Shown in pieces: positions 2,795 through 52,217 of a stretch of 64,000 nt of DNA; the first letter of the stretch is position 1, and every line of letters starts with the position of its first letter. The DNA is taken from the NCBI RefSeq assembly GCF_055900595.2, contig NZ_CM148325.1; one strand, 5' to 3'. A program made the position numbers and the translations under genes. The notes under the pieces were generated by a model, which did not search any database, was not told the DNA's origin, and saw nothing but the letters and a program-made list of their open reading frames with translations.

Positions 2795-3499
2795 ATGCGC
2801 CTGGTTCAGCTTTCTCGCCATTCAATAGCCTTCCCTTCCCCGGAAGGCGCATTACGTGAGCCTAACGGCCTGCTGGCACTGGGGGGCGATCTTAGCCCTG
2901 CGCGCCTGTTAATGGCTTACCAGCGTGGTATTTTTCCGTGGTTTTCTCCAGGCGACCCCATCCTCTGGTGGTCGCCCGATCCTCGCGCGGTGCTATGGCC
3001 AGAATCACTGCATATCAGCCGTAGTATGAAGCGATTTCATAAACGCTCGCCCTATCGTGTCACGATGAATTACGCCTTTGGTCAGGTCATTGAAGGCTGT
3101 GCCAGCGATCGCGAAGAAGGAACCTGGATCACGCGTGGCGTGGTCGAAGCCTACCATCGTCTTCACGAACTCGGTCATGCCCACTCCATCGAAGTCTGGT
3201 GTGAAGATGAGCTTGTTGGCGGTATGTACGGCGTGGCCCAGGGAACGCTATTTTGTGGCGAGTCCATGTTCAGCCGGATGGAAAACGCGTCCAAAACGGC
3301 GCTACTGGTCTTCTGTGAGGAATTTATCCGTCACGGTGGCAAACTTATCGACTGCCAGGTCCTTAACGATCACACAGCTTCGCTTGGTGCCTGCGAAATT
3401 CCCCGCCGGGATTATCTAAATTATCTCAATCAAATGCGCCTCGGACGATTGCCGAATAATTTCTGGGTACCACGGTGCTTGTTTTCACCACAAGAATGA
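2795..3499 (+). CDS. aat: Leucyl/phenylalanyl-tRNA--protein transferase
   Basis: 234-aa ORF in the conserved position between cydC and infA. Confidence 0.88.
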
Positions 3500-4249: not shown

Positions 4250-4337
4250 GGTGAGGTGTCCGAGTGGCTGAAGGAGCACGCCTGGAAAGTGTGTATACGG
4301 CAACGTATCGGGGGTTCGAATCCCCCCCTCACCGCCA
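4250..4337 (+). tRNA. serW: tRNA-Ser (anticodon GGA)
   Basis: 88-nt sequence ggtgaggtgtccgagtggctgaagg...ggttcgaatccccccctcaccgcca with long variable arm, anticodon loop ccuGGAaag, T-loop GGTTCGAATCC and encoded 3' CCA. Confidence 0.95.
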
Positions 4338-4388: not shown

Positions 4389-4468
4389 CTGCCTGTACGG
4401 CAGTGAACGGTATAAAAATCGAGTTTTCCTTTCGGTTGGCTTTCTAAGCTGCCTGTACGGCAGTGAAC
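4389..4468. repeat. Two direct copies of the 20-bp motif ctgcctgtacggcagtgaac, 60 bp apart
   Basis: Exact 20-mer at 4389-4408 and 4449-4468; each copy has a short internal dyad ctgcc...ggcag. Confidence 0.8.
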
Positions 4469-37800: not shown

Positions 37801-38913
37801 TTATTTTCCGCTCTTCACTTTGGTCCACGCGCGGGTGCGCACACGGTCGATTTTCGGATCCTGCACTTTCAGAGTGAACAGCTTCGCACGGACATCCGCA
37901 GGCGGGTAAATACCGGGGTTATCACGCACTTCCGCGCTTACCAGCGGCGTAGCTTCTTTGTTCGCGTTGGCATAGAACACATGGTCAGAGATATGCGCTA
38001 CGACATCCGGACGCAGCAGGTAATTCAGGAACTGATAAGCTTCGTCTTTATTTTTGGCATCCGCAGGCATGGCAAATACATCAAAGAATGCCATCGCCCC
38101 TTCTTTCGGAATCGAGAACGAGACATTCACGCCATTCTTTGCTTCCTTCGCGCGGTTTGACGCCTGCCAGACATCGCCCGCCCAGCCAATAGCGACGCAG
38201 ATATCGCCGTTTGCCAGGTCGTTAATGTATTGAGATGAATGGAAATAACGAATGTTCGGGCGCAGCTTTAACAGCAGATCGGTTGCCGGTCCGGTGTAAT
38301 CATCTGCTTTAGTGCTGTTGGGATCTTTACCGAGATAATTCAGCACGGTAGCAAACACTTCTTCCGGTGCATCAAGGAAAGAGACGCCGCAGCTTTTCAG
38401 TTTTTCCAGATTTTCAGGTTTGAGGATCAAGTCCCAGCTATCGACGGGCGCGTTTTCACCCAGTACAGCTTTGACTTTATCGACGTTATAGCCAATCCCG
38501 GTCGTCGCCCACATATAGGGCATAGCAAATTTATTATCCGGGTCATGTTTAGCGACCAGCTTCAGCAGTTCCGGGTCGAGATTCTTCCACTCCGGCAATT
38601 TGTTTTTATCCAGTGGCTGGAAAACTCCCGCTGTCAGCTGGCGTTCAAGAAAGCTTGCTGACGGCACCACCAGGTCAAACCCGGTGCTCCCCGCCATTAA
38701 TTTTCCTTCCAGTACTTCGTTGGAATCGAAAACATCGTAAACGACTTAAATACCGGTTTCTTTTTCAAAATTGGCCACCGTATCCGGGGCGATATAATCA
38801 GACCAGTTATAGATGTGGAGTGTTTTTTGTTCAGCCGCGAGCGTGCCGACAGAGACGGCCATCAGAGCACCCGCAACCAGACCCGATAGCCATTTTTTAT
38901 TTAAGGCGGTCAT
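37801..38913 (-). pseudogene. potF: Putrescine periplasmic binding protein PotF, interrupted by an in-frame TAA at codon 56
   Basis: The two minus-strand ORFs 38746-39063 and 37801-38697 are in the same frame, separated only by the TAA at 38746-38748 (+ strand tta); the translation reads ...[32 protein letters not shown]...; full frame would be 370 aa from [12 protein letters not shown]. Confidence 0.8.
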
Positions 38914-39263
38914 ATCTCTTTCCTTCTGAAAGTTCGTTAACAAACGAACAAAAGTTGTCACACTGAAAGATATGCAATATTCGTGCATATTTTTTATCGG
39001 CTCGGTGTAAGAAAAGAGAACTCTCTCCCGGCCAGCACTGCTCGCTATATAAAAGCATCGCAAGAATAACTTTAGCCAGGGTTTGAGACTATAGCTCGAT
39101 TTAAAAAACGGTATTTAACAAATTTTTATGCGTATTTGCTCTATGTGATAAAGCCAAATCGGCACAAGAGAAGTGAAATAATCTTTAAGAAGAGGTTAAA
39201 AACAGCAGATAATTTTGCAGCACGCAGTCACTGCGGCAGCGACTGCGTACTCTAAAGGAGTTA

Positions 39264-39740
39264 TCAGTGGAGGAAATAGTTTTCGGTAACGTTGTTTTGC
39301 CCTTCATCGTCAGTCGGTAACAGCAGTTGATGGGCATTAGCTTCAAGAATGACCATCGAAATCTGCTCTTCGCTCTGACGCACGAACCATGCAAACTGCT
39401 CATAGGTTACGCCCTGCATAACGGATAAAGACTGGCAAACCACCAGCTTTGGCAGATTATCATCCTGCATATCAAGAAATGCTTTCACGGTCAGCGAACT
39501 GGCATTGATGGCTGATAAATCCGCCGCCAGCGGTAACACGGCTGAAGGTCGGACTTCCGCCATGGCAGAAAACAGGATCGTGTTATCGATCAGATCGATT
39601 TTGGCATCAAAGACACCGTCGAAATTCTGCATATGGGGCAGATGCAGAGCCTGACAGTTATCACATTCAAAAAAACTCATCCCCAGGTCATCGAGCCATT
39701 GACGCAACGTATCCAGACCAGGAACGACCAGCGATGTCAT
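39264..39740 (-). CDS. ybjN: YbjN-family protein (putative sensory-transduction regulator)
   Basis: 158 aa from MTSLVVPGLDTLRQW; synteny between potF and rimK. Confidence 0.88.
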   Translation of the reverse strand: MTSLVVPGLDTLRQWLDDLGMSFFECDNCQALHLPHMQNFDGVFDAKIDLIDNTILFSAMAEVRPSAVLPLAADLSAINASSLTVKAFLDMQDDNLPKLVVCQSLSVMQGVTYEQFAWFVRQSEEQISMVILEANAHQLLLPTDDEGQNNVTENYFLH

Positions 39741-39827
39741 AATTTTGTACAACCTCTTTCGATAAAAAGACCGGCACAGCTTACGCAAAAAGCGCAGGCA
39801 AAACCATGATCAGTAATGTGATTGCGA

Positions 39828-40730
39828 CTAACCACCCGTTTTCAGGCAATATTCGGTCGTAGCGTGGCGTTCGATCCAGCGGATCATTTTACCCGCGATG
39901 TCGATACCGGTGGTTTTTTCTATTCCTTCCAGCCCCGGCGACGCATTCACCTCCATCACCAATGGCCCGCGATTAGCACGCAGAATATCCACACCAGCAA
40001 CGTCCAGCGCCATCGTTCGCGCGGCTTTTATCGCGATTTCACGCTCCTGTGGTGTGATACTGGCGACGCTTGCCGCGCCTCCACGATGCAAATTGGAACG
40101 AAAATCGCCCTCTTTCGCCCGCCGTTCAATCGCAGCGACCACTTCATCGCCAACAACCAGACAGCGGATATCGCACCCTTGCGCCTCTTTGATATATTCC
40201 TGCACCAAAATATGCGCGTTCAGACCGCGGAAAGCGTCAATCACGCTTTCCGCCGCCTGACGCGTCTCCGCCAGCACGACACCAATTCCCTGCGTACCTT
40301 CAACCAGCTTAACCACCAGCGGCGCACCACCGACCATGTCGATTAAATCGCTGGTATCATCCGGCGAATGCGTAATGCCCGTGACAGGCAGGTCGATGCC
40401 CTGACGCGCCAACAGCTGCATGGAACGCAACTTGTCACGCGCCCGGGCAATGGCGACCGACTCATTGAGCGGATAGCTCCCCAGCATTTCAAACTGACGT
40501 AGCGCCGCCGTCCCATAAAAGGTAATGGCGGTGCCAATACGCGGGATCACAGCGTCAAAATGGGGTAACTTGCGGCCTTTGTAGTGAATAGAAGACGCCG
40601 CAGGATTTATGTTCATGTAGCAAGAAAGCGGATCAAGAATTTCAACCAGGTGACCACGCTGTATAGCGGCTTCACGCAGCCGCTTACACGAATAGAGCGT
40701 TCCATCCCGGGACAATATGGCAATTTTCAC
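39828..40730 (-). CDS. rimK: Ribosomal protein S6 glutamate ligase RimK (ATP-grasp)
   Basis: 300-aa [12 protein letters not shown]...; ATP-grasp fold; synteny. Confidence 0.92.
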
Positions 40731-40790
40731 CCTGCACCTCTCTGTCAGACCTGGTCAAAAGCCCGCGTATCATACATCGGCGTGGCGGTT

Positions 40791-41513
40791 TTAGCGCGTA
40801 GCCCAACCCTGTTTGTGCAAATAATCCAGTATAAATGGGCGGCTTTCTTTAATGATTGTTCGGCGGATATGATCGCTCCAGGTATCCCGGCGATTATTGC
40901 TGCCACGGGTGAGGTAATATTCCGCCAGCTGCTCGTCATACTGCGCCAGTGCGTCTTTATCCAGCGGTTGATAGCTGTTTTCATGCACCAAAATGGAAGC
41001 CGGTAAACGCGGCTTAAGATCTGGATTATCCGCAGGCCAGCCAAGGCACAGCCCAAACAGCGGCAGAACATGCTGCGGTAATTTCAGCAGTTCCGTCACC
41101 GCTTCAATATTATTGCGCAGGCCGCCAATATATACCCCGCCCAATCCCAGCGATTCCGCTGCGGTTAACGCATTCTGCGCCATCATTGCCGTATCAACGA
41201 CACCGAGCAACAGTTGTTCCGCCAGGCCAAGTTGTGCATCCGGACAGATCTGTAAATGGCGGTTAAAGTCGGCACAGAACACCCAAAACTCCGCCGCTTT
41301 CGCTACGTGTTTTTGCCCGCCGGTCAGCGTCACCAGTTCATCACGTAACGCTTTGTCGGTAATGCGAATAATGCTACTGCACTGCAAAAAACTGGAACTG
41401 GACGTCGCACGGGCGCTGTTAATAATCGCCTCACGCTGCGCTTCGGAAATGGGTTCATCAGTGAAATGGCGAATGGAGCGATGGCCACAAATAAGTTCAA
41501 TGGTTGGCGTCAT
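40791..41513 (-). CDS. nfsA: Oxygen-insensitive NADPH nitroreductase NfsA
   Basis: 240-aa ORF MTPTIELICGHRSIRHFTDEPI...; nitroreductase family. Confidence 0.92.
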   Translation of the reverse strand: MTPTIELICGHRSIRHFTDEPISEAQREAIINSARATSSSSFLQCSSIIRITDKALRDELVTLTGGQKHVAKAAEFWVFCADFNRHLQICPDAQLGLAEQLLLGVVDTAMMAQNALTAAESLGLGGVYIGGLRNNIEAVTELLKLPQHVLPLFGLCLGWPADNPDLKPRLPASILVHENSYQPLDKDALAQYDEQLAEYYLTRGSNNRRDTWSDHIRRTIIKESRPFILDYLHKQGWATR

Positions 41514-41784
41514 TATCTTTTTCTCTTTCTGAACGTGAATATTGCGGTGGACGGTTCATCAACTGTGGTGCTATACGTTTTGCCACCTGAAGAGTAACCA
41601 CCACCGCAGCGGGAAGCATGAGCAAAACACCGAGAAAAATCATCAGAATCTGCCCCTCTGGCCAAGAAAATGGCTCAGGCAGCGACAGGACGTCGCTTAC
41701 CGACAGTAGCGCCACCGTCAGCAACATCATCCCGATAAATTCCAGTATCACCACGCTTTTAGGCAATTTACCGATCGCGCGCAT
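41497..41784 (-). CDS. ybjC: Small membrane protein YbjC
   Basis: 95-aa hydrophobic ORF overlapping the nfsA start. Confidence 0.85.
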   Translation of the reverse strand: MRAIGKLPKSVVILEFIGMMLLTVALLSVSDVLSLPEPFSWPEGQILMIFLGVLLMLPAAVVVTLQVAKRIAPQLMNRPPQYSRSEREKDNDANH

Positions 41785-41943
41785 ACGCTTCCCTCAGCAA
41801 AGTAAGCCCTCAGTCTAAAACTTTTCACTGTATTGTGTTTAACAGTTATAGCTTTTAGCAATTAATGCAACAGGTTAAACCTACTTTCAGCGAATACATT
41901 TTGGCGTGATCATTACCGGCATAAACCGATGAGGAGAGAAACA

Positions 41944-42201
41944 ATGCAAACCGTTATTTTTGGTCGTCCGGGTTGCCCTTACTGTGTGCGTGCAAAAGAT
42001 CTGGCTGAGAAGTTGAGCAATGAACGCGATGATTTTCAGTATCAGTATGTAGATATTCGTGCGGAAGGGATCACTAAAGAAGATCTACAACAAAAGGCAG
42101 GTAAACCCGTAGAAACCGTGCCGCAGATTTTTGTCGATCAGCAACATATCGGCGGCTATACCGATTTTGCTGCATGGGTGAAAGAGAATCTGGACGCCTG
42201 A
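41944..42201 (+). CDS. grxA: Glutaredoxin 1
   Basis: 85 aa from MQTVIFGRPGCPYCVRAK with CPYC active site. Confidence 0.95.
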   Translation: MQTVIFGRPGCPYCVRAKDLAEKLSNERDDFQYQYVDIRAEGITKEDLQQKAGKPVETVPQIFVDQQHIGGYTDFAAWVKENLDA

Positions 42202-42233
42202 GCGTCTGACAAGCCCTCGTGTTGAGGGCTTAA

Positions 42234-42608
42234 TTAATTTTTTCTGTGCTGTGATTTAAACAAACTGCTGATAAATAAGAAACACAGTGCCCCCAACGCA
42301 CACCAGAACACCGCACTTAATAACCATGCCAGCTCTTGCCAGAATGAGCGCGTTGGTGAAAAAAACAGCCGCATTATGAGCATCGAACAGGGTGCCGCCA
42401 GCATTGCGCCAAACAGAGGTTTCAGGACTTCTCTACGCTGTGAAAAGAAGCTGGCAACCGCTCCAGGAAGAATGAAAAACAGCAAACCAATTTCAGGATG
42501 CCCGGCAGCCCGAAAAGCGCCTTTCATGTGCGTCGCCAGAAAAAGGCACACCACAATGAAGAGGACAAAACAGCAGATTGCCCCCGCCCAACGTTGTTTA
42601 TGTTTCAC
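42234..42608 (-). CDS. ybjM: Inner-membrane protein YbjM
   Basis: 124-aa hydrophobic ORF; synteny. Confidence 0.82.
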   Translation of the reverse strand: MKHKQRWAGAICCFVLFIVVCLFLATHMKGAFRAAGHPEIGLLFFILPGAVASFFSQRREVLKPLFGAMLAAPCSMLIMRLFFSPTRSFWQELAWLLSAVFWCALGALCFLFISSLFKSQHRKN

Positions 42609-42877
42609 TCGTTCCTCCTGACACTGCGTCTATCGAACACATTTTTCGCCAGTGTGGCGTTCAGTAAGATAAAGCCGCTTCGCATTCCATGCTAATATAG
42701 GCCAACGCAATTCATATAGCCGTTGATACCTAATGTGATTACACTAGTAAAATATATTGTTACTTTACTATCGTTTAGGTGCGCTGAATGAATCTGCGCC
42801 CTGAATTCTGGTAAAAAACATTATCGTAAATTACCATTTCTTTCAACAGCTTACTAGTAAACAAGAAGTTAGCCTCC

Positions 42878-44563
42878 GTGAATATAAACGTCGCCGAATT
42901 GTTAAATGGGAATTACATTCTGTTATTATTTGTGGTCCTCGCGCTTGGGCTATGTCTCGGGAAATTACGACTTGGTTCGATCCAACTGGGTAATTCCATT
43001 GGCGTTTTAGTCGTATCGCTGTTATTAGGCCAACAACATTTCAGCATTAACACCGACGCGCTTAATCTTGGCTTTATGCTGTTTATTTTCTGCGTCGGGG
43101 TCGAAGCCGGACCGAACTTTTTTTCCATTTTTTTTCGCGATGGGAAAAATTACCTAATGTTAGCACTGGTGATGGTTGGCAGTGCGCTGGTGATCGCCTT
43201 AGGGTTAGGTAAGCTGTTTGGCTGGGATATTGGCCTGACGGCCGGTATGTTAGCAGGCTCTATGACGTCGACACCGGTTCTGGTCGGTGCTGGCGATACA
43301 CTGCGTCATTCCGGCATGGAAAGCAGGCAGCTCTCACTGGCACTGGATAATCTGAGCCTCGGATATGCCTTAACCTATTTAATCGGTCTGGTGAGTTTGA
43401 TTGTTGGTGCGCGTTACTTGCCGAAATTGCAGCATCAGGACTTACAGACCAGCGCCCAGCAAATCGCCCGCGAACGTGGCCTGGACACTGATGCCAACCG
43501 TAAAGTTTATTTACCGGTGATCCGCGCCTACCGCGTCGGCCCGGAGCTGGTGGCCTGGACCGACGGCAAAAATCTGCGTGAGCTGGGCATTTATCGACAA
43601 ACCGGCTGCTACATTGAACGTATTCGACGTAACGGGATTCTGGCAAATCCAGACGGTGATGCCGTGCTACAAATGGGCGATGAAATAGCGTTGGTAGGCT
43701 ACCCCGACGCCCACGCTCGACTCGATCCCAGTTTCCGTAATGGCAAAGAAGTTTTCGATCGTGACCTTCTCGACATGCGTATCGTTACCGAAGAAGTGGT
43801 CGTTAAAAACCATAACGCTGTAGGCAAACGTCTCGCACAACTGAAGTTGACCGATCACGGTTGCTTCCTTAACCGCGTTATTCGTAGCCAGATTGAGATG
43901 CCGATAGATGACAACGTCGTGCTTAACAAAGGTGACGTTTTACAAGTCAGCGGCGATGCCCGCCGCGTAAAAACCATCGCCGATCGCATCGGCTTTATCT
44001 CGATTCACAGCCAGGTCACTGACTTGCTGGCATTCTGCGCCTTCTTTGTTATTGGGCTGATGATCGGGATGATCACATTCCAGTTCAGCACATTCAGTTT
44101 CGGCATGGGGAACGCTGCCGGGTTGTTATTCGCCGGAATTATGCTGGGCTTTATGCGTGCTAACCACCCGACCTTCGGTTACATTCCGCAGGGTGCATTA
44201 AGCATGGTGAAAGAGTTCGGCTTGATGGTGTTTATGGCAGGCGTTGGTCTGAGCGCCGGTAGCGGTATTAATAACGGTCTGGGCGCGATTGGCGGTCAGA
44301 TGTTGATTGCCGGATTGATTGTCAGTCTGGTGCCAGTGGTTATCTGCTTCCTGTTCGGTGCTTATGTATTGCGAATGAACCGCGCACTGTTGTTCGGCGC
44401 AATGATGGGTGCGCGTACCTGTGCACCGGCAATGGAGATCATCAGCGATACAGCCCGCAGTAACATCCCGGCGCTGGGCTATGCGGGCACCTACGCAATC
44501 GCCAACGTTCTGCTAACGCTGGCTGGGACAATCATCGTCATGGTATGGCCAGGGTTAGGATAA
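42878..44563 (+). CDS. ybjL: Putative AAE-family transporter YbjL (two TrkA-C domains)
   Basis: 561-aa ORF from a GTG start; membrane domains flanking soluble RCK-C-like segments. Confidence 0.88.
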
Positions 44564-44606
44564 AACTGAAGTTGCCCTGAAAATGAAATTTTTTTGCACA
44601 ACCGCA

Positions 44607-44634
44607 GAACTTTTCCTCAGGGCATCAGTCTTAA
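44607..44634 (+). promoter_or_regulatory. Sigma-E-type promoter of rybB
   Basis: -35 GAACTT (44607-44612) and -10 TCTTAA (about 44629-44634) with 16-nt spacer, 5-6 nt upstream of the RybB 5' end. Confidence 0.65.
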
Positions 44635-44639
44635 TTAGT

Positions 44640-44718
44640 GCCACTGCTTTTCTTTGATGTCCCCATTTTGTGGAGCCCATCAACCCCGCCATTTCGGTTC
44701 AAGGTTGGTGGGTTTTTT
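44640..44718 (+). ncRNA. rybB: RybB small RNA (sigma-E-dependent, Hfq-binding repressor of outer-membrane protein mRNAs)
   Basis: gccactgcttttctttgatgtccccattttgtggagcccatcaaccccgccatttcggttcaaggttggtgggtttttt matches RybB as I recall it (conserved 5' seed GCCACUGCUUUUCUUUGAUGUCCCC and terminator hairpin with U-run); lies between ybjL and rcdA. Confidence 0.85.
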
Positions 44719-44737
44719 GTTATCTAAAATTTATCTA

Positions 44738-45274
44738 CTACCCGGCAACCCTCTCAACCATCCTCAAAATCTCCTCGCGCGATAGCGGCTTACGGTCGGT
44801 GACAAAATGCAGCGTCATCCCCTCAATAAACGCATCAAGCGCGCGGGCGGTTCCGGGTTCAAACCATTGTTCGAGCGTTTGCTGACTGCGCTGCATCCAG
44901 TTTTGCATTACCGTTTTTAATAGCGGTTTTCGGCTAGCCAGCGCGTAGAGCTGGTACATCAGCTCCATGTTATCCGGCGTTGCAACCTGTGAGCTGTAGA
45001 TCATATCGGTGATAGCCTGGCATGCGCCCGGAGCATCACTAACATCGCTAAAAAATGCCTGATATTGCCGGGACATGATCTCAGTAAAACTGCTGAACGC
45101 CTCCAGCAACAACTCATCAATTCCTGAAAAATAGTAGGTCATCGACCCCAACGGTACCCCGGCAAGGGTAGCAATTTTGCGGTGCGTAACGGCATGTATT
45201 CCGTAAAGTTTCACCGCCTCCAGCGTGGCCTGGATAATTTTTTCTCGCCGTTGCGGATCGTTAGCGCGACGCAT
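44738..45274 (-). CDS. rcdA: TetR-family transcriptional regulator RcdA (YbjK)
   Basis: 178 aa from [22 protein letters not shown]-terminal TetR HTH; ends with TAG. Confidence 0.88.
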
Positions 45275-45357
45275 GTCATTTCCTCTCTCTGCAATTGTGT
45301 ACAAATGTACACAACCTTGCTAATGTTGTCTTCCCTCTTCTTATTTTGACGTGATCT

Positions 45358-46566
45358 ATGACCGTAAATTCTTCACGTAATGCATTGAAACGCCGAACCT
45401 GGGCGCTGTTTATGTTCTTCTTTTTGCCGGGCCTGTTAATGGCGTCCTGGGCAACTCGTACACCTGCTATCCGCGATATTCTTTCTGTTTCGATCGCTGA
45501 AATGGGCGGAGTCCTCTTTGGTCTGTCGATCGGTTCAATGAGCGGTATTCTCTGCTCGGCGTGGTTAGTGAAACGCTTTGGGACGCGGAATGTCATCCAG
45601 GTCACGATGTCCTGCGCATTGATCGGGATGATGATATTAAGTCTGGCACTCTGGCTGACATCGCCCCTGCTCTTTGCCGTTGGTCTCGGCGTCTTTGGGG
45701 CAAGTTTTGGTTCTGCGGAAGTGGCGATAAACGTTGAAGGTGCTGCCGTTGAGCGAGAAATGAATAAGACGGTTTTGCCGATGATGCACGGTTTTTATAG
45801 CCTGGGCACGCTGGCAGGCGCTGGTGTCGGGATGGCACTGACGGCCTTTGGCGTTCCGGCAACGGTGCACATTTTATTGGCGGCGCTGGTAGGCATCGCG
45901 CCTATTTATATCGCCATTCAGGCAATCCCTGACGGTACGGGCAAAAATGCTGCCGATGGCACCCAGCATGGTGAAAAAGGCGTACCTTTTTATCGGGATA
46001 TCCAGTTGCTGCTGATTGGTGTTGTGGTACTGGCGATGGCCTTTGCCGAAGGTTCTGCCAACGACTGGTTACCCTTATTAATGGTTGACGGTCACGGTTT
46101 TAGCCCTACTTCCGGCTCGCTGATTTATGCCGGTTTTACCCTGGGGATGACTGTTGGACGCTTTACCGGCGGTTGGTTCATCGACCGTTATAGTCGCGTT
46201 GCCGTGGTTCGGGCCAGTGCACTGATGGGAGCGTTGGGTATTGGGCTGATTATTTTTGTCGATAGCGCCTGGGTCGCTGGGGTGTCTGTTGTACTTTGGG
46301 GACTGGGGGCCTCGCTGGGCTTCCCGCTGACCATTTCTGCCGCCAGCGATACCGGCCCCGATGCACCGACCCGCGTCAGCGTAGTGGCGACGACCGGTTA
46401 TCTGGCTTTCCTCGTCGGGCCGCCGCTGCTGGGCTATCTCGGCGAACATTATGGATTACGTAGTGCAATGCTGGTTGTACTGGCGCTGGTTATTCTTGCG
46501 GCTATTGTCGCGAAAGCCGTCGCCAAACCCAATACCAAAACGCAGACGGCGATGGAGAATAGTTGA
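45358..46566 (+). CDS. ybjJ: MFS transporter YbjJ
   Basis: 402-aa ORF with 12 predicted transmembrane segments. Confidence 0.88.
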
Positions 46567-47381
46567 TGAGCATTAAATTAATTGCGGTTGACATGGATGG
46601 TACTTTCTTAAGCGATCAAAAAACCTATAACCGTGAGCGGTTTATGGCTCAGTATCAGCAGATGAAAGCACAAGGCATTCGCTTTGTGGTCGCCAGCGGG
46701 AATCAATATTATCAGTTAATCTCTTTCTTCCCTGAAATTGCTAATGAAATTGCCTTTGTGGCTGAAAACGGCGGTTGGGTTGTAAGCGAAGGCAAAGATG
46801 TTTTTAATGGCGAGCTGTCGAAGGATGCGTTTGCTACTGTGGTGGAACATTTACTGACGCGCCCAGAAGTGGAAATTATTGCCTGCGGAAAAAATAGCGC
46901 CTATACCCTCAAAAAATATGACGATGCCATGAAAACGGTGGCGGAAATGTATTATCACCGTCTGGAATACGTCGATAACTTTGATAATTTAGAAGATATC
47001 TTCTTTAAGTTTGGCCTGAATCTTTCCGATGAACTGATTCCACAAGTGCAAAAAGCATTACATGAGACCATCGGCGATATTATGGTGCCGGTCCACACCG
47101 GCAACGGCAGCATCGATCTGATTATCCCCGGCGTACATAAAGCGAATGGCCTGCGCCAACTTCAGAAATTATGGGGAATAGACGACAGCGAAGTGGTGGT
47201 CTTCGGCGATGGTGGTAACGATATTGAGATGCTGCGTCAGGCAGGCTTTAGTTTTGCGATGGAAAATGCTGGCAGCGCGGTCGTCGCAGCGGCAAAATAC
47301 CGGGCAGGCTCCAATAATCATGAAGGTGTACTGGATGTGATCGATAAAGTTCTTAAACACGAAGCGCCTTTTGATCAATAA
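46566..47381 (+). CDS. ybjI: HAD-family phosphatase YbjI (Cof-type)
   Basis: 271 aa from [15 protein letters not shown] (HAD motif I DxDGT); ATG overlaps the ybjJ stop. Confidence 0.88.
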   Translation: MSIKLIAVDMDGTFLSDQKTYNRERFMAQYQQMKAQGIRFVVASGNQYYQLISFFPEIANEIAFVAENGGWVVSEGKDVFNGELSKDAFATVVEHLLTRPEVEIIACGKNSAYTLKKYDDAMKTVAEMYYHRLEYVDNFDNLEDIFFKFGLNLSDELIPQVQKALHETIGDIMVPVHTGNGSIDLIIPGVHKANGLRQLQKLWGIDDSEVVVFGDGGNDIEMLRQAGFSFAMENAGSAVVAAAKYRAGSNNHEGVLDVIDKVLKHEAPFDQ

Positions 47382-47466
47382 AAACGGTAGCACGCCCGGC
47401 AACACAAAGCCTGAATGAAGGCTGCATAATTCGCAGAAATTAACCCGCTGCATTATTTCAGGCGAA

Positions 47467-47751
47467 ATGATTATGAGAAATTGTCTACTGTTGGGCGCGC
47501 TTTTAATGGGCTTTACTGGTGTGGCGATGGCGCAAAGTGTCACCGTCGATGTGCCGAGTGGATACAAAGTGGTTGTGGTCCCTGATTCAGTCAGCGTTCC
47601 ACAAGCAGTCAGCGTCGCGACTGTGCCGCAAACCGTCTATGTGGCTCCTGCGCCAGCTCCGGCTTACCGCCCGCATCCGTATGTTCGCCATCTTGCCAGC
47701 GTAGGTGAAGGGATGGTTATCGAACACCAGATTGATGACCATCACCATTAA
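47467..47751 (+). CDS. ybjH: Small secreted protein YbjH
   Basis: 94-aa ORF with signal peptide MIMRNCLLLGALLMGFTGVAMA. Confidence 0.8.
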   Translation: MIMRNCLLLGALLMGFTGVAMAQSVTVDVPSGYKVVVVPDSVSVPQAVSVATVPQTVYVAPAPAPAYRPHPYVRHLASVGEGMVIEHQIDDHHH

Positions 47752-47754
47752 TTT

Positions 47755-47793
47755 GAAAATGCCTGATTGCTTTGCGCAACCAGGCATTTTTTT
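47755..47793. terminator. Bidirectional intrinsic terminator between ybjH and mdfA
   Basis: Stem aatgcctg/caggcatt flanked by A-run and ttttttt. Confidence 0.75.
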
Positions 47794-49024
47794 ACCCTTC
47801 GTGCGAATTACCCATCTGTTTATCTTTTAAAAAGATAACCATCAGCAGCAGCCACAAAATCCCGTTGGCAAGGTTGAAGAGATTAAACAGGCCATTTCCC
47901 CCATTCAGCCAGGCATGTTTGCTGATTTCAATACCGACGGTAAAAATAAGCATTTGCAACATTCCCATCGCCGCAGAAACCGTACCTTTACTCATATCGC
48001 TGGCAAACAGGGTCAATCGCACCAGTCCCGCATTCGCCAGGCCAATACCGAAAGCATAAATACTTAACCCGGCGGTCATCCACAAATACGCGTGCGATGA
48101 GATAACCGTTGCCGCAGCAGCGACCAACAGGCCAATCATAATCGGCCAGCCGCCCATAATAATCAATGAACGTACGGTGCGGCGCGAGGTCAGACGCGCT
48201 AGCAGCAAGTTACCCGCAATTAATGCCCCGAAAATAGGCACTTGCAGCAAGCCATATTCATAACTGCTCAACTGCTCGCCGGTAATGATGATAATCGGCG
48301 ACTGGGCGATCCACGCCAGCAACGGCAGGCTAACGAATCCCAGCGCCAGTGCCCCTGCCACAAAGCGACCGTTCTTCAGCACCAGCTTATAGTCACGACC
48401 GAGTTCTTTCAGCGACAGTTTCTCGCCTATACGCGTGGCGGTTTCAGGCATGGCTCGTTGCAGACCGAAAAAGGAGATCGCTGCCAATGAGGCAAACAAG
48501 ACGAACATCCCTTCCCAGGGCAGCACATGGATCCACGCCGCGCCCACCAGCGGACCAAGTAGCGGAGCAATCAGCGCCACGTTCGCCATCAGCGCGGTGA
48601 TCTTGATACAAACCGCCTCTTCGAAGGACTCCTGAATTGCGGCGTAACCCACAGCGCCAATGAAACAGAGGCTTATGCCCTGCAAGAAGCGCAACAGCGT
48701 GAATTGTTCAATGTTTTGCGCCAGTAATATCGCCAGACAAGTGATGATAAACCACACTACCCCCGCCAGCATCACCGGACGGCGACCAATACGATCCGAC
48801 AGTGGTCCCAGCAGCCACTGTAAAAACATCCCGCCCGCCAGATACGCGGTCATCGAAGTAGGAACCCAATCAATGCCCGCCTGATACTGCTCCACCACGG
48901 CCAACATGCCGGGTTGAATCATATCGTTGCCGATATAGGTTGAAAATTCGTAAAGCACCAGACAGAGAGGGAAAAGTAACGCCTGACGTCCAAGCCTGGC
49001 ACCGGAAGCTAATCTATTTTGCAT
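47792..49024 (-). CDS. mdfA: Multidrug efflux MFS transporter MdfA (Cmr)
   Basis: 410 aa from [40 protein letters not shown]; 12-TM MFS protein. Confidence 0.92.
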
Positions 49025-49309
49025 GCAATTTCTTCGCCAATAATAATCGCGCAAAGTTTAATAAAAGCGCAGCTAACGAGAAAGCGAATTTTGTAGCTGA
49101 AACTTCGGTTAAGCACATTCTTACATTATTGCGAGTATAGCTACGCTTTCTTTAAGTTTTATTTAACCTATGCTCGTTACAATCAGCCACCGTAAACAGG
49201 GCCGCTTGAGGGAAATAAGACGATGCCGCTTTACCCAGTTTAACCTGCACTTTATTCTCAACGACTTGCCTGTATTGGCTCCCTTTTAATCACTTTGCGT
49301 CGGGAAGTT

Positions 49310-49906
49310 ATGCTGGAAAATTTGAATCTCTCTCTATTCTCTCTTATTAACGCGACGCCAGACTCTGCGCCGTGGATGATCTCGTTGGCGATTTTTATTG
49401 CTAAAGATTTGATTACCGTGGTGCCGCTGCTGGCCGCAGTACTTTGGTTGTGGGGGCTTACAGCACAACGGCAACTGGTGATAAAAATCGCAATCGCGCT
49501 AGTCGTCAGCCTGTTAGTGTCCTGGACGATGGGGCATCTTTTCCCACACGACCGACCCTTTGTCGAGAATATCGGCTATAACTTCCTGCATCATGCGGCG
49601 GATGACTCATTCCCGAGCGATCATGGTACGGTAATTTTCACCTTTGCACTGGCATTTTTATGCTGGCATCGCCTGTGGTCCGGTTCCCTTTTAATGGTAC
49701 TGGCTGTTGTCATTGCCTGGTCGCGCGTTTATCTTGGCGTGCACTGGCCGCTGGATATGCTCGGTGGATTGCTGGCAGGTATGATTGGCTGCCTTAGCGC
49801 TCAGATTATCTGGCAAGCGATAGGGCATAAACTCTATCAACGTCTGCAATCATGGTATCGCTTCTGTTTTGCATTACCGATCCGCAAAGGCTGGGTGCGT
49901 GACTGA
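49310..49906 (+). CDS. ybjG: Undecaprenyl-pyrophosphate phosphatase YbjG (PAP2 family)
   Basis: 198 aa from MLENLNLSLFSLINATPDSAPWM; PAP2 motifs PSDH and SRVYLGVHWPLD. Confidence 0.9.
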   Translation: MLENLNLSLFSLINATPDSAPWMISLAIFIAKDLITVVPLLAAVLWLWGLTAQRQLVIKIAIALVVSLLVSWTMGHLFPHDRPFVENIGYNFLHHAADDSFPSDHGTVIFTFALAFLCWHRLWSGSLLMVLAVVIAWSRVYLGVHWPLDMLGGLLAGMIGCLSAQIIWQAIGHKLYQRLQSWYRFCFALPIRKGWVRD

Positions 49907-49963
49907 TCTCTGCTAAAAAGTGTAGTATTGAGCGGCTCGCTTCAATAACTATTCAGAGGGATT

Positions 49964-50722
49964 ATGGAAACACGTCGCGAAGAGCGTATCGGGCAACTGC
50001 TGCAAGAATTAAAACGCAGCGATAAGTTACATCTTAAAGACGCCGCCGCCCTGCTTGGGGTTTCGGAGATGACGATTCGTCGCGATCTGAACAACCACAG
50101 CGCCCCCGTCGTTTTGCTTGGCGGCTATATTGTTCTGGAACCGCGCAGCGCCAGCCATTATCTGTTAAGCGATCAAAAATCCCGTCTGGTAGAGGAAAAA
50201 CGCCGGGCGGCAAAACTGGCTGCGACGCTGGTAGAACCCGATCAGACCCTCTTTTTTGACTGTGGCACCACCACACCGTGGATTATTGAAGCGATTGATA
50301 ATGAAATCCCTTTTACCGCCATTTGTTATTCGCTAAATACCTTTCTGGCACTGAAAGAGAAACCTCATTGCCGCGCGTTTCTTTGCGGTGGTGAATTTCA
50401 CGCCAGCAACGCCATTTTCAAACCCATCGATTTTCAGCAAACGCTGAATAATTTTTGCCCGGATATCGCTTTTTATTCCGCGGCGGGGGTGCATGTCAGT
50501 AAGGGCGCTACCTGTTTTAATCTTGAAGAGTTGCCGGTAAAACACTGGGCCATGTCGATGGCGCAAAAGCATGTGCTGGTTGTCGACCACAGTAAATTTG
50601 GCAAGGTGCGTCCGGCACGCATGGGTGACCTGAAACGCTTTGATATTGTAGTGAGCGATTGTTGCCCGGAAGATGAGTATGTGAAGTACGCGCAGACGCA
50701 GCGTATTAAGTTGATGTATTAA
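49964..50722 (+). CDS. deoR: DeoR transcriptional repressor
   Basis: 252-aa ORF; N-terminal HTH (LLGVSEMTIRRDL); synteny. Confidence 0.9.
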   Translation: METRREERIGQLLQELKRSDKLHLKDAAALLGVSEMTIRRDLNNHSAPVVLLGGYIVLEPRSASHYLLSDQKSRLVEEKRRAAKLAATLVEPDQTLFFDCGTTTPWIIEAIDNEIPFTAICYSLNTFLALKEKPHCRAFLCGGEFHASNAIFKPIDFQQTLNNFCPDIAFYSAAGVHVSKGATCFNLEELPVKHWAMSMAQKHVLVVDHSKFGKVRPARMGDLKRFDIVVSDCCPEDEYVKYAQTQRIKLMY

Positions 50723-50728
50723 CAACGA

Positions 50729-50762
50729 ATAACCGGATGACGTTTCGCGCCATCCGGTTATC
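50729..50762. terminator. Hairpin between convergent deoR and dacC
   Basis: Stem aaccggatg/catccggtt. Confidence 0.55.
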
Positions 50763-50768
50763 AGAAGA

Positions 50769-51971
50769 TTAAGAGAACCAGCTGCCGAACCACTGATGGA
50801 ATTTCATCATCACGAAATCCCACATCCGACCAAAGAATCCACCCTCTTCCACATTTTCCATCACGATCAGCGGGCGCTGTTCAATGGATTTACCGTTAAG
50901 CTGGAAATCAATGGTGCCGACAACCTGACCTTTTTTCAGCGGTGCGGTAAGCTGCGGTTCCGTTAACGTATAACTCGCTTTCAGGTTTTTCAGCTGCCCA
51001 CGCGGTATGGTCACGGATCCCGCTTCGCCTGCCCCGAGATTCACTTCGCTCTTATCACCAAACCAGACGCGCTGAGTCACAAAGGTGGCATCAGGTTTAA
51101 TTGGCGTCACGGTTTCAAAGAAGCGGAAACCCCAGGTCAATAATTTCTCAGACTCATTAAAACGGATACGGTCAGTTTTCGCCCCCAGCACTACGGAGAT
51201 TAAACGCATATCGCCCTGGGTAGCAGAAGCAACCAGATTATATCCCGCGCCTGCCGTGGTTCCTGTCTTCATGCCATCAACATTCAGATTGCTGCTCCAC
51301 AGCAGACGGTTACGGTTAGGCTGACGAATTTTGTTGAAGGTGAACTCTTTCTCTTTATGAATGGCGTACTCTTCTGGCACATCGTGAATCAGTGCTTTAC
51401 CCAGCAATGCCATATCGCGTGCGGTACTGAACTGCCCCGGCGCATCCAGACCGTGCACCGTCTGGAAGGTCGTGTTGGTCAGCCCCAGTTTTTTGGCATA
51501 ACCATTCATCAAACCAATAAATGACTCCTGGCTCCCGGCAACGTAATCAGCCAGCGCAATACAGGCGTCATTACCGGACTGGATAATCACGCCTTTGTTC
51601 AAGTCTGCCACCGAAACCTGATCGCCTGGTTTGAGGAACATTACCGACGAACCACGCAGTGCCGGGTTTCCCGTCGCCCAGGCATCTTTACCGACCGTCA
51701 CCATATCGGTGAGTTTAATCTTATCGGCCTTAAGCGCCTGCCCAACCACATAGCTGGTCATGATTTTAGTCAGGCTCGCGGGGTCCAGTTTCTCATCCGC
51801 ATTGCCTTCTGCCAGCACTTTACCGCTGGCGTAATCCATTAAAATCCATGCACGCGCATCCACGCTCGGCGCTTCAACGGTTTGTTCCGCCGCGAATGCC
51901 GTTGGGGCAAAAAGGAATAAAAATGCAGAACCCGCTGCAAGACCACGAAGGAGAGAGGAGTATTGCGTCAT
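50769..51971 (-). CDS. dacC: D-alanyl-D-alanine carboxypeptidase DacC (PBP6)
   Basis: 400 aa from [27 protein letters not shown]; active-site SxxK (PASLTK), SGN and KTG motifs. Confidence 0.93.
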
Positions 51972-52217
51972 AAATGCCACCCGAGTATCCATTCAAAAAA
52001 AATACGTTATATCGCCGTATGATAAGTTCGGTGATTAATAACGCACACACAAACTTAAAGAAACCGTAAGTTGGTAAAGTTTTTAAAGTTTATGCAATAT
52101 CCTGCCGCTTCGCTGCTTCTGCCGTCATTTTTTTGCCAGCTGTTGCTTAAAAGTTAACTTTACTTCACCATCAAAGTCCTGTTCAGCCTGTGGCTGCCTG
52201 TCGGAAAAGGGGTAAGT

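What the first reader, a model, noticed from the sequence alone, without database searches (positions are those of the whole stretch)
44607..44718. RybB sRNA locus with sigma-E promoter conserved between ybjL and rcdA
The RybB sequence with its seed region and terminator is present on the + strand, with a GAACTT -35 and TCTTAA-like -10 at the expected spacing. It is not novel, but it is a functional non-coding element that ORF-based annotation would miss. Its terminator stem reads ggttggtggg; verify this against the reference, since base-pairing in the terminator matters for Hfq binding.
Basis: partly seen in the sequence, partly recalled or inferred. Interest (0 to 1): 0.3.

Follow-up and report, generated by a model that had tools for sequence, protein, structure and literature searches.

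The report
Known RybB small RNA, variant allele
This is the well-known E. coli envelope-stress small RNA RybB with its sigma-E promoter, in its usual place between ybjL and rcdA; it is ordinary apart from two harmless-looking single-base differences from the K-12 reference.

Summary
Rfam's RybB model (RF00110) matches window 44643-44721 (+) at 104.1 bits against a gathering score of 40 (E 2.5e-20). The annotated K-12 rybB gene (b4417) aligns base for base to 44640-44718, with ybjL upstream and rcdA convergent downstream, as in K-12.

A sigma-E-type promoter lies at the right spacing: GAACTTT at 44607-44613, a 14-nt gap to GTCTTA at 44628-44633, then 6 nt to the +1. These boxes are invariant in 115-116 of 116 enterobacterial loci.

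K-12 reads GGTTGATGGG and the window reads GGTTGGTGGG (44708, RybB A69G). This turns U41-A69 into a U·G wobble, keeps the same fold, and costs 0.6 kcal/mol. The allele is a common polymorphism: 738 of 5420 complete E. coli chromosomes carry it, against 4491 with the K-12 form. Serratia orthologues carry U·G at the same pair.

A second difference, G>T at 44617 (-23, promoter spacer), is rare in E. coli (11 of 5307) but lies at a position that varies freely across genera.

The stem covaries (7 of 12 pairs change on both sides; 97.9% paired). Verdict: already known, low interest. Sigma-E dependence, Hfq binding and target repression are inferred from the literature, not tested here.

The parts
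42878..44563 (+). ybjL (putative transporter / aspartate:alanine antiporter), upstream flanking gene
   Evidence: 561-aa ORF. Annotated ybjL in K-12 and in the identical strain Z0117EC0005.
44580..44596 (+). A/T-tract-rich stretch (AAAATGAAATTTTTTT, about -60 to -44); a candidate UP element of the rybB promoter (inferred)
   Evidence: 72% A+T over -60..-36 against 50% for the whole window. The mean is 71% across 116 loci. UP elements of sigma-E promoters are described in PMC3326320. Function not tested.
44607..44613 (+). -35 box GAACTTT of the sigma-E-type promoter
   Evidence: Read directly. G-A-A-C-T-T-T at -33..-27 is invariant in 115-116 of 116 loci. Consensus GGAACTTTT as quoted in PMC1804206.
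44617..44617 (+). Spacer polymorphism at -23: T here, G in K-12
   Evidence: Alignment to K-12. The window's 61-nt promoter is identical in only 11 of 5307 E. coli records. Position -23 varies freely across genera: T 50, C 27, A 25, G 14.
44628..44633 (+). -10 box GTCTTA of the sigma-E-type promoter
   Evidence: G-T-C at -12..-10 and A at -7 are invariant in 116 of 116 loci. Consensus GTCAAA as quoted in PMC1804206.
44640..44718 (+). RybB sRNA, 79 nt
   Evidence: Aligns to the K-12 ncRNA rybB b4417. Rfam RF00110 at 104.1 bits.
44640..44655 (+). 5' seed / target-recognition region (GCCACUGCUUUUCUUU)
   Evidence: Identical to K-12. The first three bases, which lie outside the search pattern, are invariant in all 116 loci. 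The seed role comes from published work recalled from memory (Papenfort et al. 2010), not tested here.
44674..44714 (+). Terminator hairpin: 12-bp stem (44674-44685 with 44703-44714) around a 17-nt loop that holds a 3-bp inner helix
   Evidence: MFE structure. Rfam consensus structure. Seven of 12 pairs change on both sides and 97.9% of cells are paired.
44708..44708 (+). RybB A69G: U41-A69 in K-12 becomes a U41·G69 wobble
   Evidence: Alignment. Energy -24.6 against -25.2 kcal/mol with the same structure. The allele is in 738 of 5420 E. coli records, against 4491 with the K-12 allele.
44713..44718 (+). 3' U-tail (TTTTTT, followed by GTT)
   Evidence: Read directly. Identical to K-12.
44738..45274 (-). 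rcdA (ybjK), convergent downstream gene; its stop codon lies 19 nt beyond the RybB 3' end
   Evidence: ORF list. Annotation in K-12 and in strain Z0117EC0005, mapped to window coordinates.

Best explanation
Window 44640-44718 (+) is the E. coli orthologue of rybB, a 79-nt Hfq-dependent small RNA. It is transcribed from a sigma-E (RpoE)-dependent promoter at 44607-44633 and ends at its own Rho-independent terminator.

By published work on this family, envelope stress activates sigma-E and RybB accumulates. Its single-stranded 5' end pairs with many outer-membrane-protein mRNAs and speeds their decay, which lowers OMP load and feeds back on sigma-E.

The window carries a natural allele with two substitutions relative to K-12:
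- A69G in the terminator's 3' arm gives a U·G wobble. Pairing is kept, and the allele is in about 14% of complete E. coli genomes.
- G>T at -23 lies in the non-conserved promoter spacer and is rare, about 0.2%.

Both are most likely neutral.

Shown here: identity, synteny, promoter motif conservation, terminator structure and covariation, and allele frequencies. Inferred from the literature: sigma-E dependence, Hfq binding, target repression, and neutrality of the two SNPs.
For: - Rfam RF00110 matches full length at 104.1 bits against GA 40.
- 78 of 79 nt are identical to the annotated K-12 rybB, in the same ybjL-rybB-rcdA arrangement.
- The locus is present in 5418 of 5426 complete E. coli genomes.
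- The -35 GAACTTT and -10 GTC..A boxes are invariant, at fixed spacing, in 116 loci from Escherichia to Proteus, Xenorhabdus and Yersinia.
- Published consensus and strict sigma-E dependence of rybB: PMC1804206. rybB is among the active, strongly competing sigma-E promoters in PMC3326320.
- The terminator folds at -22.4 kcal/mol, z -4.2.
- The stem is 97.9% paired, with 7 of 12 pairs changed on both sides. No shuffle in 500 reaches the observed score, and slid controls reach at most 47.5% paired.
- A69G costs only 0.6 kcal/mol and leaves the structure unchanged. U·G at the same stem pair occurs in Serratia oryzae and S. grimesii.
- Position -23 is unconstrained across genera, and T is the commonest base there.
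Against: - Nothing contradicts the identity.
- No expression, sigma-E, Hfq or target data exist for this strain.
- The comparative set was collected with an exact 22-nt pattern from RybB nt 4-25. Conservation of that stretch is therefore built in, and divergent orthologues are missing.
- The sequences are related, so shuffle controls overstate significance.
- The simple terminator scan found no terminator here. It allows loops of 3-8 nt only, and this loop is 17 nt.
- PMC3326320 reports that spacer sequence correlates (negatively) with sigma-E promoter strength. A small effect of the -23 change cannot be excluded.
Confidence: 0.97

Rival explanations
1. The locus is RybB, but this allele is functionally altered. 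The U·G wobble weakens termination or shifts the termination point, which changes U-tail length and Hfq loading. The -23 G>T change could also alter promoter strength. Together they would change RybB levels in this lineage.
For: - Terminator hairpin strength tunes poly(U) length and Hfq binding in SgrS and RyhB (PMC5558911).
- Spacer sequence correlates with sigma-E promoter strength (PMC3326320).
- The -23T variant is rare: 11 of 5307.
- None of the 113 non-E. coli loci with an ATCAAC-type stem carries the G allele.
Against: - The energy change is only 0.6 kcal/mol, with an identical MFE and centroid structure.
- The published effect came from extending and strengthening stems, not from a single wobble.
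- The G allele is in 738 of 5420 genomes, so it is not strongly deleterious.
- Serratia orthologues naturally have U·G at this pair.
- Position -23 is the least constrained kind of position across genera.
Confidence: 0.07
2. The hairpin mainly serves as the terminator of the convergent rcdA gene (a bidirectional terminator). The SNP would then matter on the minus strand, where it creates a C·A mismatch.
For: - The rcdA stop codon lies 19 nt from the RybB 3' end, and the hairpin is the only strong structure after it.
- On the minus strand the SNP weakens the fold from -22.2 to -17.4 kcal/mol.
Against: - On the minus strand the hairpin is followed by CUCCACAAAAU, not a U-run, so it is a poor intrinsic terminator in that direction.
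- The substitution preserves pairing only in the RybB sense. This fits constraint on the + strand RNA.
- This reading is not exclusive of RybB, whose identity is established.
Confidence: 0.05
3. The region encodes a small protein rather than, or as well as, an RNA. Mechanical ORFs overlap it: 43 aa at 44654-44785 (+), 71 aa at 44670-44885 (+), and 45 aa at 44555-44692 (-).
For: These ORFs appear in the six-frame list.
Against: - The + strand ORFs start with TTG or GTG and run antisense through rcdA.
- Variation across genera follows RNA pairing, not codon structure, and includes indels of 1-3 nt in the loop.
- K-12 annotates only an ncRNA here.
Confidence: 0.01

Closest known systems
RybB sRNA of E. 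coli K-12 (b4417; Rfam RF00110)
   Same: Same locus between ybjL and rcdA, same strand relation and same 79-nt length. The first 68 nt are identical, including the seed. The U-tail, the -35 and -10 boxes and their spacing are the same.
   Different: One base in the RNA: A69G, so U-A becomes U·G in the terminator stem. One base in the promoter spacer: -23 G>T. One base 12 nt past the 3' end: 44730 C>T.
RybB of Salmonella and other Enterobacterales (sigma-E-dependent omp-mRNA repressor; PMC1804206)
   Same: Same 5' domain, same promoter boxes and the same hairpin-plus-U-tail architecture.
   Different: The stem sequence differs and covaries in Serratia, Yersinia, Xenorhabdus, Proteus and Providencia (for example CCCGAUAGUC/GACUAUCGGG). 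Loop length and sequence also vary.
MicA and MicL, the other sigma-E-dependent sRNAs of E. coli
   Same: Same regulatory logic: a sigma-E promoter, Hfq dependence and repression of envelope protein synthesis (PMC1804206, PMC4102768).
   Different: Unrelated sequences at other loci. No match to them was found in this window.

Membership tests
RybB (Rfam RF00110) | Covariance-model score at or above the curated gathering score, over the full model | tested here: met
   104.1 bits against 40, E 2.5e-20, model positions 1-79 of 79, not truncated.
RybB (Rfam RF00110) | Orthologous position: the ybjL-rcdA (ybjK) intergenic region, convergent with rcdA | tested here: met
   ORFs and annotation of K-12 and of an identical strain. 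The location is stated in PMC1804206.
RybB (Rfam RF00110) | Conserved single-stranded 5' end (seed GCCACUGCUUUUCUUU) starting at the +1 | tested here: met
   Identical to K-12. The weak 4-bp 5' helix in the MFE gets no comparative support: 20 of 65 sequences break pair 4-34, with no compensating change.
RybB (Rfam RF00110) | Rho-independent terminator hairpin followed by a U-run | tested here: met
   A 12-bp stem at -22.4 kcal/mol, z -4.2, followed by UUUUUU. Covariation in 7 of 12 pairs.
Sigma-E regulon promoters | -35 GGAACTT(TT) and -10 (G)TCAAA-like boxes with a ~16-nt gap, and a start about 6 nt after the -10 box | tested here: met
   aGAACTTTT, then 14 nt, then GTCTTA, then 6 nt, then G+1. 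Equivalently GAACTT-16-TCTTA. The boxes are invariant in 116 loci. Consensus from PMC1804206 and PMC3326320.
Sigma-E regulon promoters | Transcription depends on RpoE | not testable with these tools
   Shown for Salmonella rybB in PMC1804206. Not measured for this strain.
Hfq-dependent trans-acting sRNAs | Binds Hfq and represses target mRNAs by base pairing | not testable with these tools
   Literature only (PMC1804206, PMC4911921). The sequence features that Hfq needs, a hairpin and a U-tail, are present.

The most novel reading that the evidence does not exclude
The window's haplotype (RybB A69G plus the rare -23T spacer base) could be a functional variant. It might shift RybB termination or U-tail length, or promoter output. 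Through the C·A mismatch it creates on the opposite strand, it might instead change 3'-end formation of the convergent rcdA mRNA. Either effect would give this lineage a slightly different envelope-stress or biofilm-regulator set point.
Probability: 0.06. Interest if true: 0.2.

Novelty: already known. Interest (0 to 1): 0.08.

Why it matters
It matters little beyond annotation quality. RybB is a textbook sigma-E-dependent sRNA. The practical points are these:
- Standard PGAP/RefSeq annotation leaves it unlabelled in nearly all E. coli genomes.
- The K-12 sequence is not the only natural allele. About one complete genome in seven carries A69G, a U·G wobble in the terminator stem. Anyone designing probes or mutants, or modelling terminator and Hfq-module strength, should know this.
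- The wobble preserves pairing only in the RybB-sense strand. This is a small textbook illustration of strand-specific structural constraint.

Tried and rejected
- The generic terminator and sigma-70 promoter scan of 44300-45000 found no terminator and only one weak minus-strand sigma-70-like site. It misses the RybB terminator because it allows loops of 3-8 nt and this loop is 17 nt. It does not model sigma-E promoters.
- The 4-bp helix between nt 2-5 and 31-34 in the MFE fold is rejected. Twenty of 65 orthologues break it without compensation, which fits a free seed.
- RybB copies on plasmids: 16 plasmid-collection hits. Eight are records of 0.5-5.4 Mb, far too large for ordinary plasmids and probably chromosomes or chromosome pieces filed as plasmids. 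Five are E. coli 'plasmids' of 36-74 kb that carry the locus at 98.4% identity. The three partial hits (Yersinia, two Proteus) are among the 0.5-5.4 Mb records. I did not inspect any record individually, so true plasmid carriage is neither shown nor excluded.
- I checked whether the 2024 paper on terminator loops in sRNA regulation (PMC11979758) gives the RybB terminator a regulatory role. From the abstract and the passages that mention RybB, that mechanism concerns other sRNAs. RybB represses fepA in a way that suggests the TIR or early coding sequence is targeted, directly or indirectly.
- Small ORFs overlapping the RNA are rejected as coding; see the rival explanations.
- One literature query failed on syntax.

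Full report
**1. Observation**

The sequence at 44600-44721 reads cagaacttttcctcagggcatcagtcttaattagt|GCCACTGCTTTTCTTTGATGTCCCCATTTTGTGGAGCCCATCAACCCCGCCATTTCGGTTCAAGGTTGGTGGGTTTTTT|gtt.

A scan of the whole window against Rfam 15 gives RybB (RF00110) at 44643-44721 on the + strand. The score is 104.1 bits against a gathering score of 40, E 2.5e-20, with all 79 model positions matched. The Rfam model begins three bases inside the RNA.

The window is E. coli. A 171-nt query around the locus matches 5418 of 5426 complete E. coli genomes. In K-12 MG1655 the ncRNA rybB (b4417, 887979-888057, minus strand) lies between rcdA and ybjL. A pairwise alignment places it exactly on window 44640-44718.

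In the window ybjL is 42878-44563 (+) and rcdA is 44738-45274 (-), so synteny is the same.

**2. Promoter**

- GAACTTT occupies 44607-44613 and GTCTTA occupies 44628-44633.
- Six nucleotides separate the -10 box from G+1 at 44640.
- Papenfort et al. (PMC1804206) quote the sigma-E consensus as -35 GGAACTTTT and -10 GTCAAA. They report near-perfect, conserved matches upstream of rybB and strict rpoE dependence of the promoter.
- Rhodius and colleagues list rybB among active, strongly competing sigma-E promoters (PMC3326320).
- The degenerate motif GAACTT-N15-17-GTCNNA occurs once in the 64-kb window, at this site. About 0.26 matches are expected by chance, so the motif alone is weak evidence.

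The comparative evidence is stronger. I extracted -60..+100 from 113 of these loci, and added the window, K-12 and strain Z0117EC0005, which made 116 sequences.

- Positions -33..-27 (GAACTTT) are invariant in 115-116 of 116.
- Positions -12..-10 (GTC) and -7 (A) are invariant in 116 of 116.
- The spacing never changes, while the spacer is free to vary.
- Upstream, -60..-36 is 72% A+T with eight overlapping A3/T3 tracts. The mean is 71% across loci, and the whole window is 50% A+T. This fits a UP element, though that role is inferred only.

**3. The RNA and its terminator**

The MFE fold has a 12-bp stem (nt 35-46 with 64-75) enclosing a 17-nt loop with a 3-bp inner helix, followed by the U-run. 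The terminator module alone folds at -22.4 kcal/mol, z -4.2.

On an alignment of 65 distinct orthologous RNAs, the stem shows the following:
- It is 97.9% paired.
- Seven of its 12 pairs change on both sides, for example AUCAAC/GUUGAU against GAUAGU/ACUAUC.
- No shuffle in 500 reaches the observed covariation.
- Sliding the 3' partner by 1-3 columns drops pairing to 20-48%.

Two caveats apply. The sequences are related. They were also collected through an exact match in the 5' domain, so conservation of nt 4-25 is built in. The stem and the promoter lie outside the search pattern, so their evidence is independent of it.

The weak 5' helix (nt 2-5 with 31-34) in the MFE is not supported. Twenty of 65 sequences break it with no compensation. 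This fits a free 5' seed.

**4.

K-12 reads GGTTGATGGG and the window reads GGTTGGTGGG. The difference is at 44708, which is RybB nt 69. It pairs with U41 (44680), so U-A becomes U·G.

- The predicted structure is unchanged. The energy moves from -25.2 to -24.6 kcal/mol for the whole RNA, and from -23.0 to -22.4 for the terminator module.
- The allele is a common polymorphism. The window's 82-nt RybB sequence is identical in 738 of 5420 E. coli records, and the K-12 sequence in 4491.
- None of the other-species representatives with the ATCAAC-type stem has the G, so it looks derived within E. coli.
- Serratia oryzae and S. grimesii naturally carry U·G at the same stem pair.
- On the opposite strand the same substitution produces a C·A mismatch and weakens the hairpin from -22.2 to -17.4 kcal/mol. 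The change is therefore conservative only for the RybB-sense RNA.
- Morita et al. (PMC5558911) showed for SgrS and RyhB that the poly(U) tail and a moderate hairpin strength determine Hfq binding. Over-stabilised stems shorten the tail. A 0.6 kcal/mol weakening seems unlikely to matter, but this is inference.

**5. Second difference**

Position 44617 (-23, promoter spacer) is T where K-12 has G.

- The window's 61-nt promoter sequence is identical in only 11 of 5307 E. coli records.
- Across genera -23 is unconstrained, and T is the commonest base: T 50, C 27, A 25, G 14.
- Over 14 kb around the locus the window is 100% identical to eight complete genomes and at most 98.7% identical to all others. 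It therefore comes from a sparsely sampled clonal lineage.

**6. Mechanism**

Shown here: a conserved sigma-E-type promoter, a conserved 5' domain, and a covarying Rho-independent terminator with a U-tail.

Inferred from the literature: sigma-E drives transcription under envelope stress. Hfq binds the 3' module. The 5' end pairs with omp mRNAs and accelerates their decay, which relieves envelope stress and feeds back on sigma-E (PMC1804206). fepA is a more recently reported target (PMC11979758).

**7. Comparison and novelty**

Every sequence-level defining feature of RybB that can be tested here is met. The functional features (RpoE dependence, Hfq binding, target repression) cannot be tested with these tools.

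The element is already known. The only new details are allele frequencies.

PGAP-annotated RefSeq genomes list no feature under the RybB match, whereas the curated K-12 record does.

**8. Verdict**

The finding is confirmed and ordinary: RybB, already known, interest about 0.08. The most novel reading not excluded is a functional effect of the A69G/-23T haplotype on RybB output or on rcdA 3' ends. I give it a probability of about 0.06, and it would be of modest interest even if true.

Noticed in passing
window 4441-4468 (-), next to tRNA-Ser(GGA) at 4250-4337 (+): There is a single perfect match to the Rfam CRISPR-DR4 repeat (GTTCACTGCCGTACAGGCAGCTTAGAAA, 50.1 bits against GA 35), about 100 nt from a tRNA-Ser gene. 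No second copy occurs in the window even with 3 mismatches, so it is a lone repeat and not an array. From memory, E. coli strains that lack the type I-F system keep a remnant repeat near this region (clpA-infA). I did not verify that here.
   Followed up: partly
window 31888-31968 (-) and 32925-32967 (-): Rfam matches naRNA4 (CssrE, 78.4 bits against GA 59.5), which looks like a REP/BIME-type repeat. It also gives a borderline match to ES036 (CssrF, 38.8 against 37.6). I did not examine either further.
   Followed up: no
L123 (E. coli AR_0017, NZ_CP024886.1) 3001-3073, syntenic rybB locus: This genome has a 9-nt deletion (GAGCCCATC) that removes most of the 5' arm of the RybB terminator stem. 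The promoter, seed and 3' arm are intact. It is either a natural rybB terminator lesion or an assembly error, and it is the only record in the 80-90% identity band.
   Followed up: partly
E. coli complete genomes: Eight of 5426 complete genomes give no match to the rybB locus. Some genomes hold up to 3 places, and 7 places lie on records labelled plasmid. In the plasmid collection, eight of the 16 hits are records of 0.5-5.4 Mb and five are 36-74 kb E. coli records carrying the locus at 98.4% identity. None was inspected individually.
   Followed up: partly
window 38000-52000: Over 14 kb the window is 100% identical to only eight complete E. coli genomes (strains Z0117EC0005, E400634, E500002, E600003, E200086, 100117, 100248, AST85). 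The next best match is 98.7%. The window therefore comes from a sparsely sampled clonal lineage that is fairly divergent in this region.
   Followed up: partly
L072 (Kluyvera genomosp. 3) and L114: L072 has a 1-nt deletion in the CCC at the base of the RybB terminator's 5' arm (GAGCCATCAACC). L114 has a divergent stem (CCAGAGCGUC/GACGCUCGGG) and a shorter, interrupted U-run. Both are natural variants at the base of the hairpin.
   Followed up: no
RefSeq annotation of the locus: PGAP-annotated E. coli genomes carry no feature for rybB, even a re-sequenced MG1655 (NZ_CP025268.1). The curated NC_000913.3 record does annotate it.
   Followed up: yes
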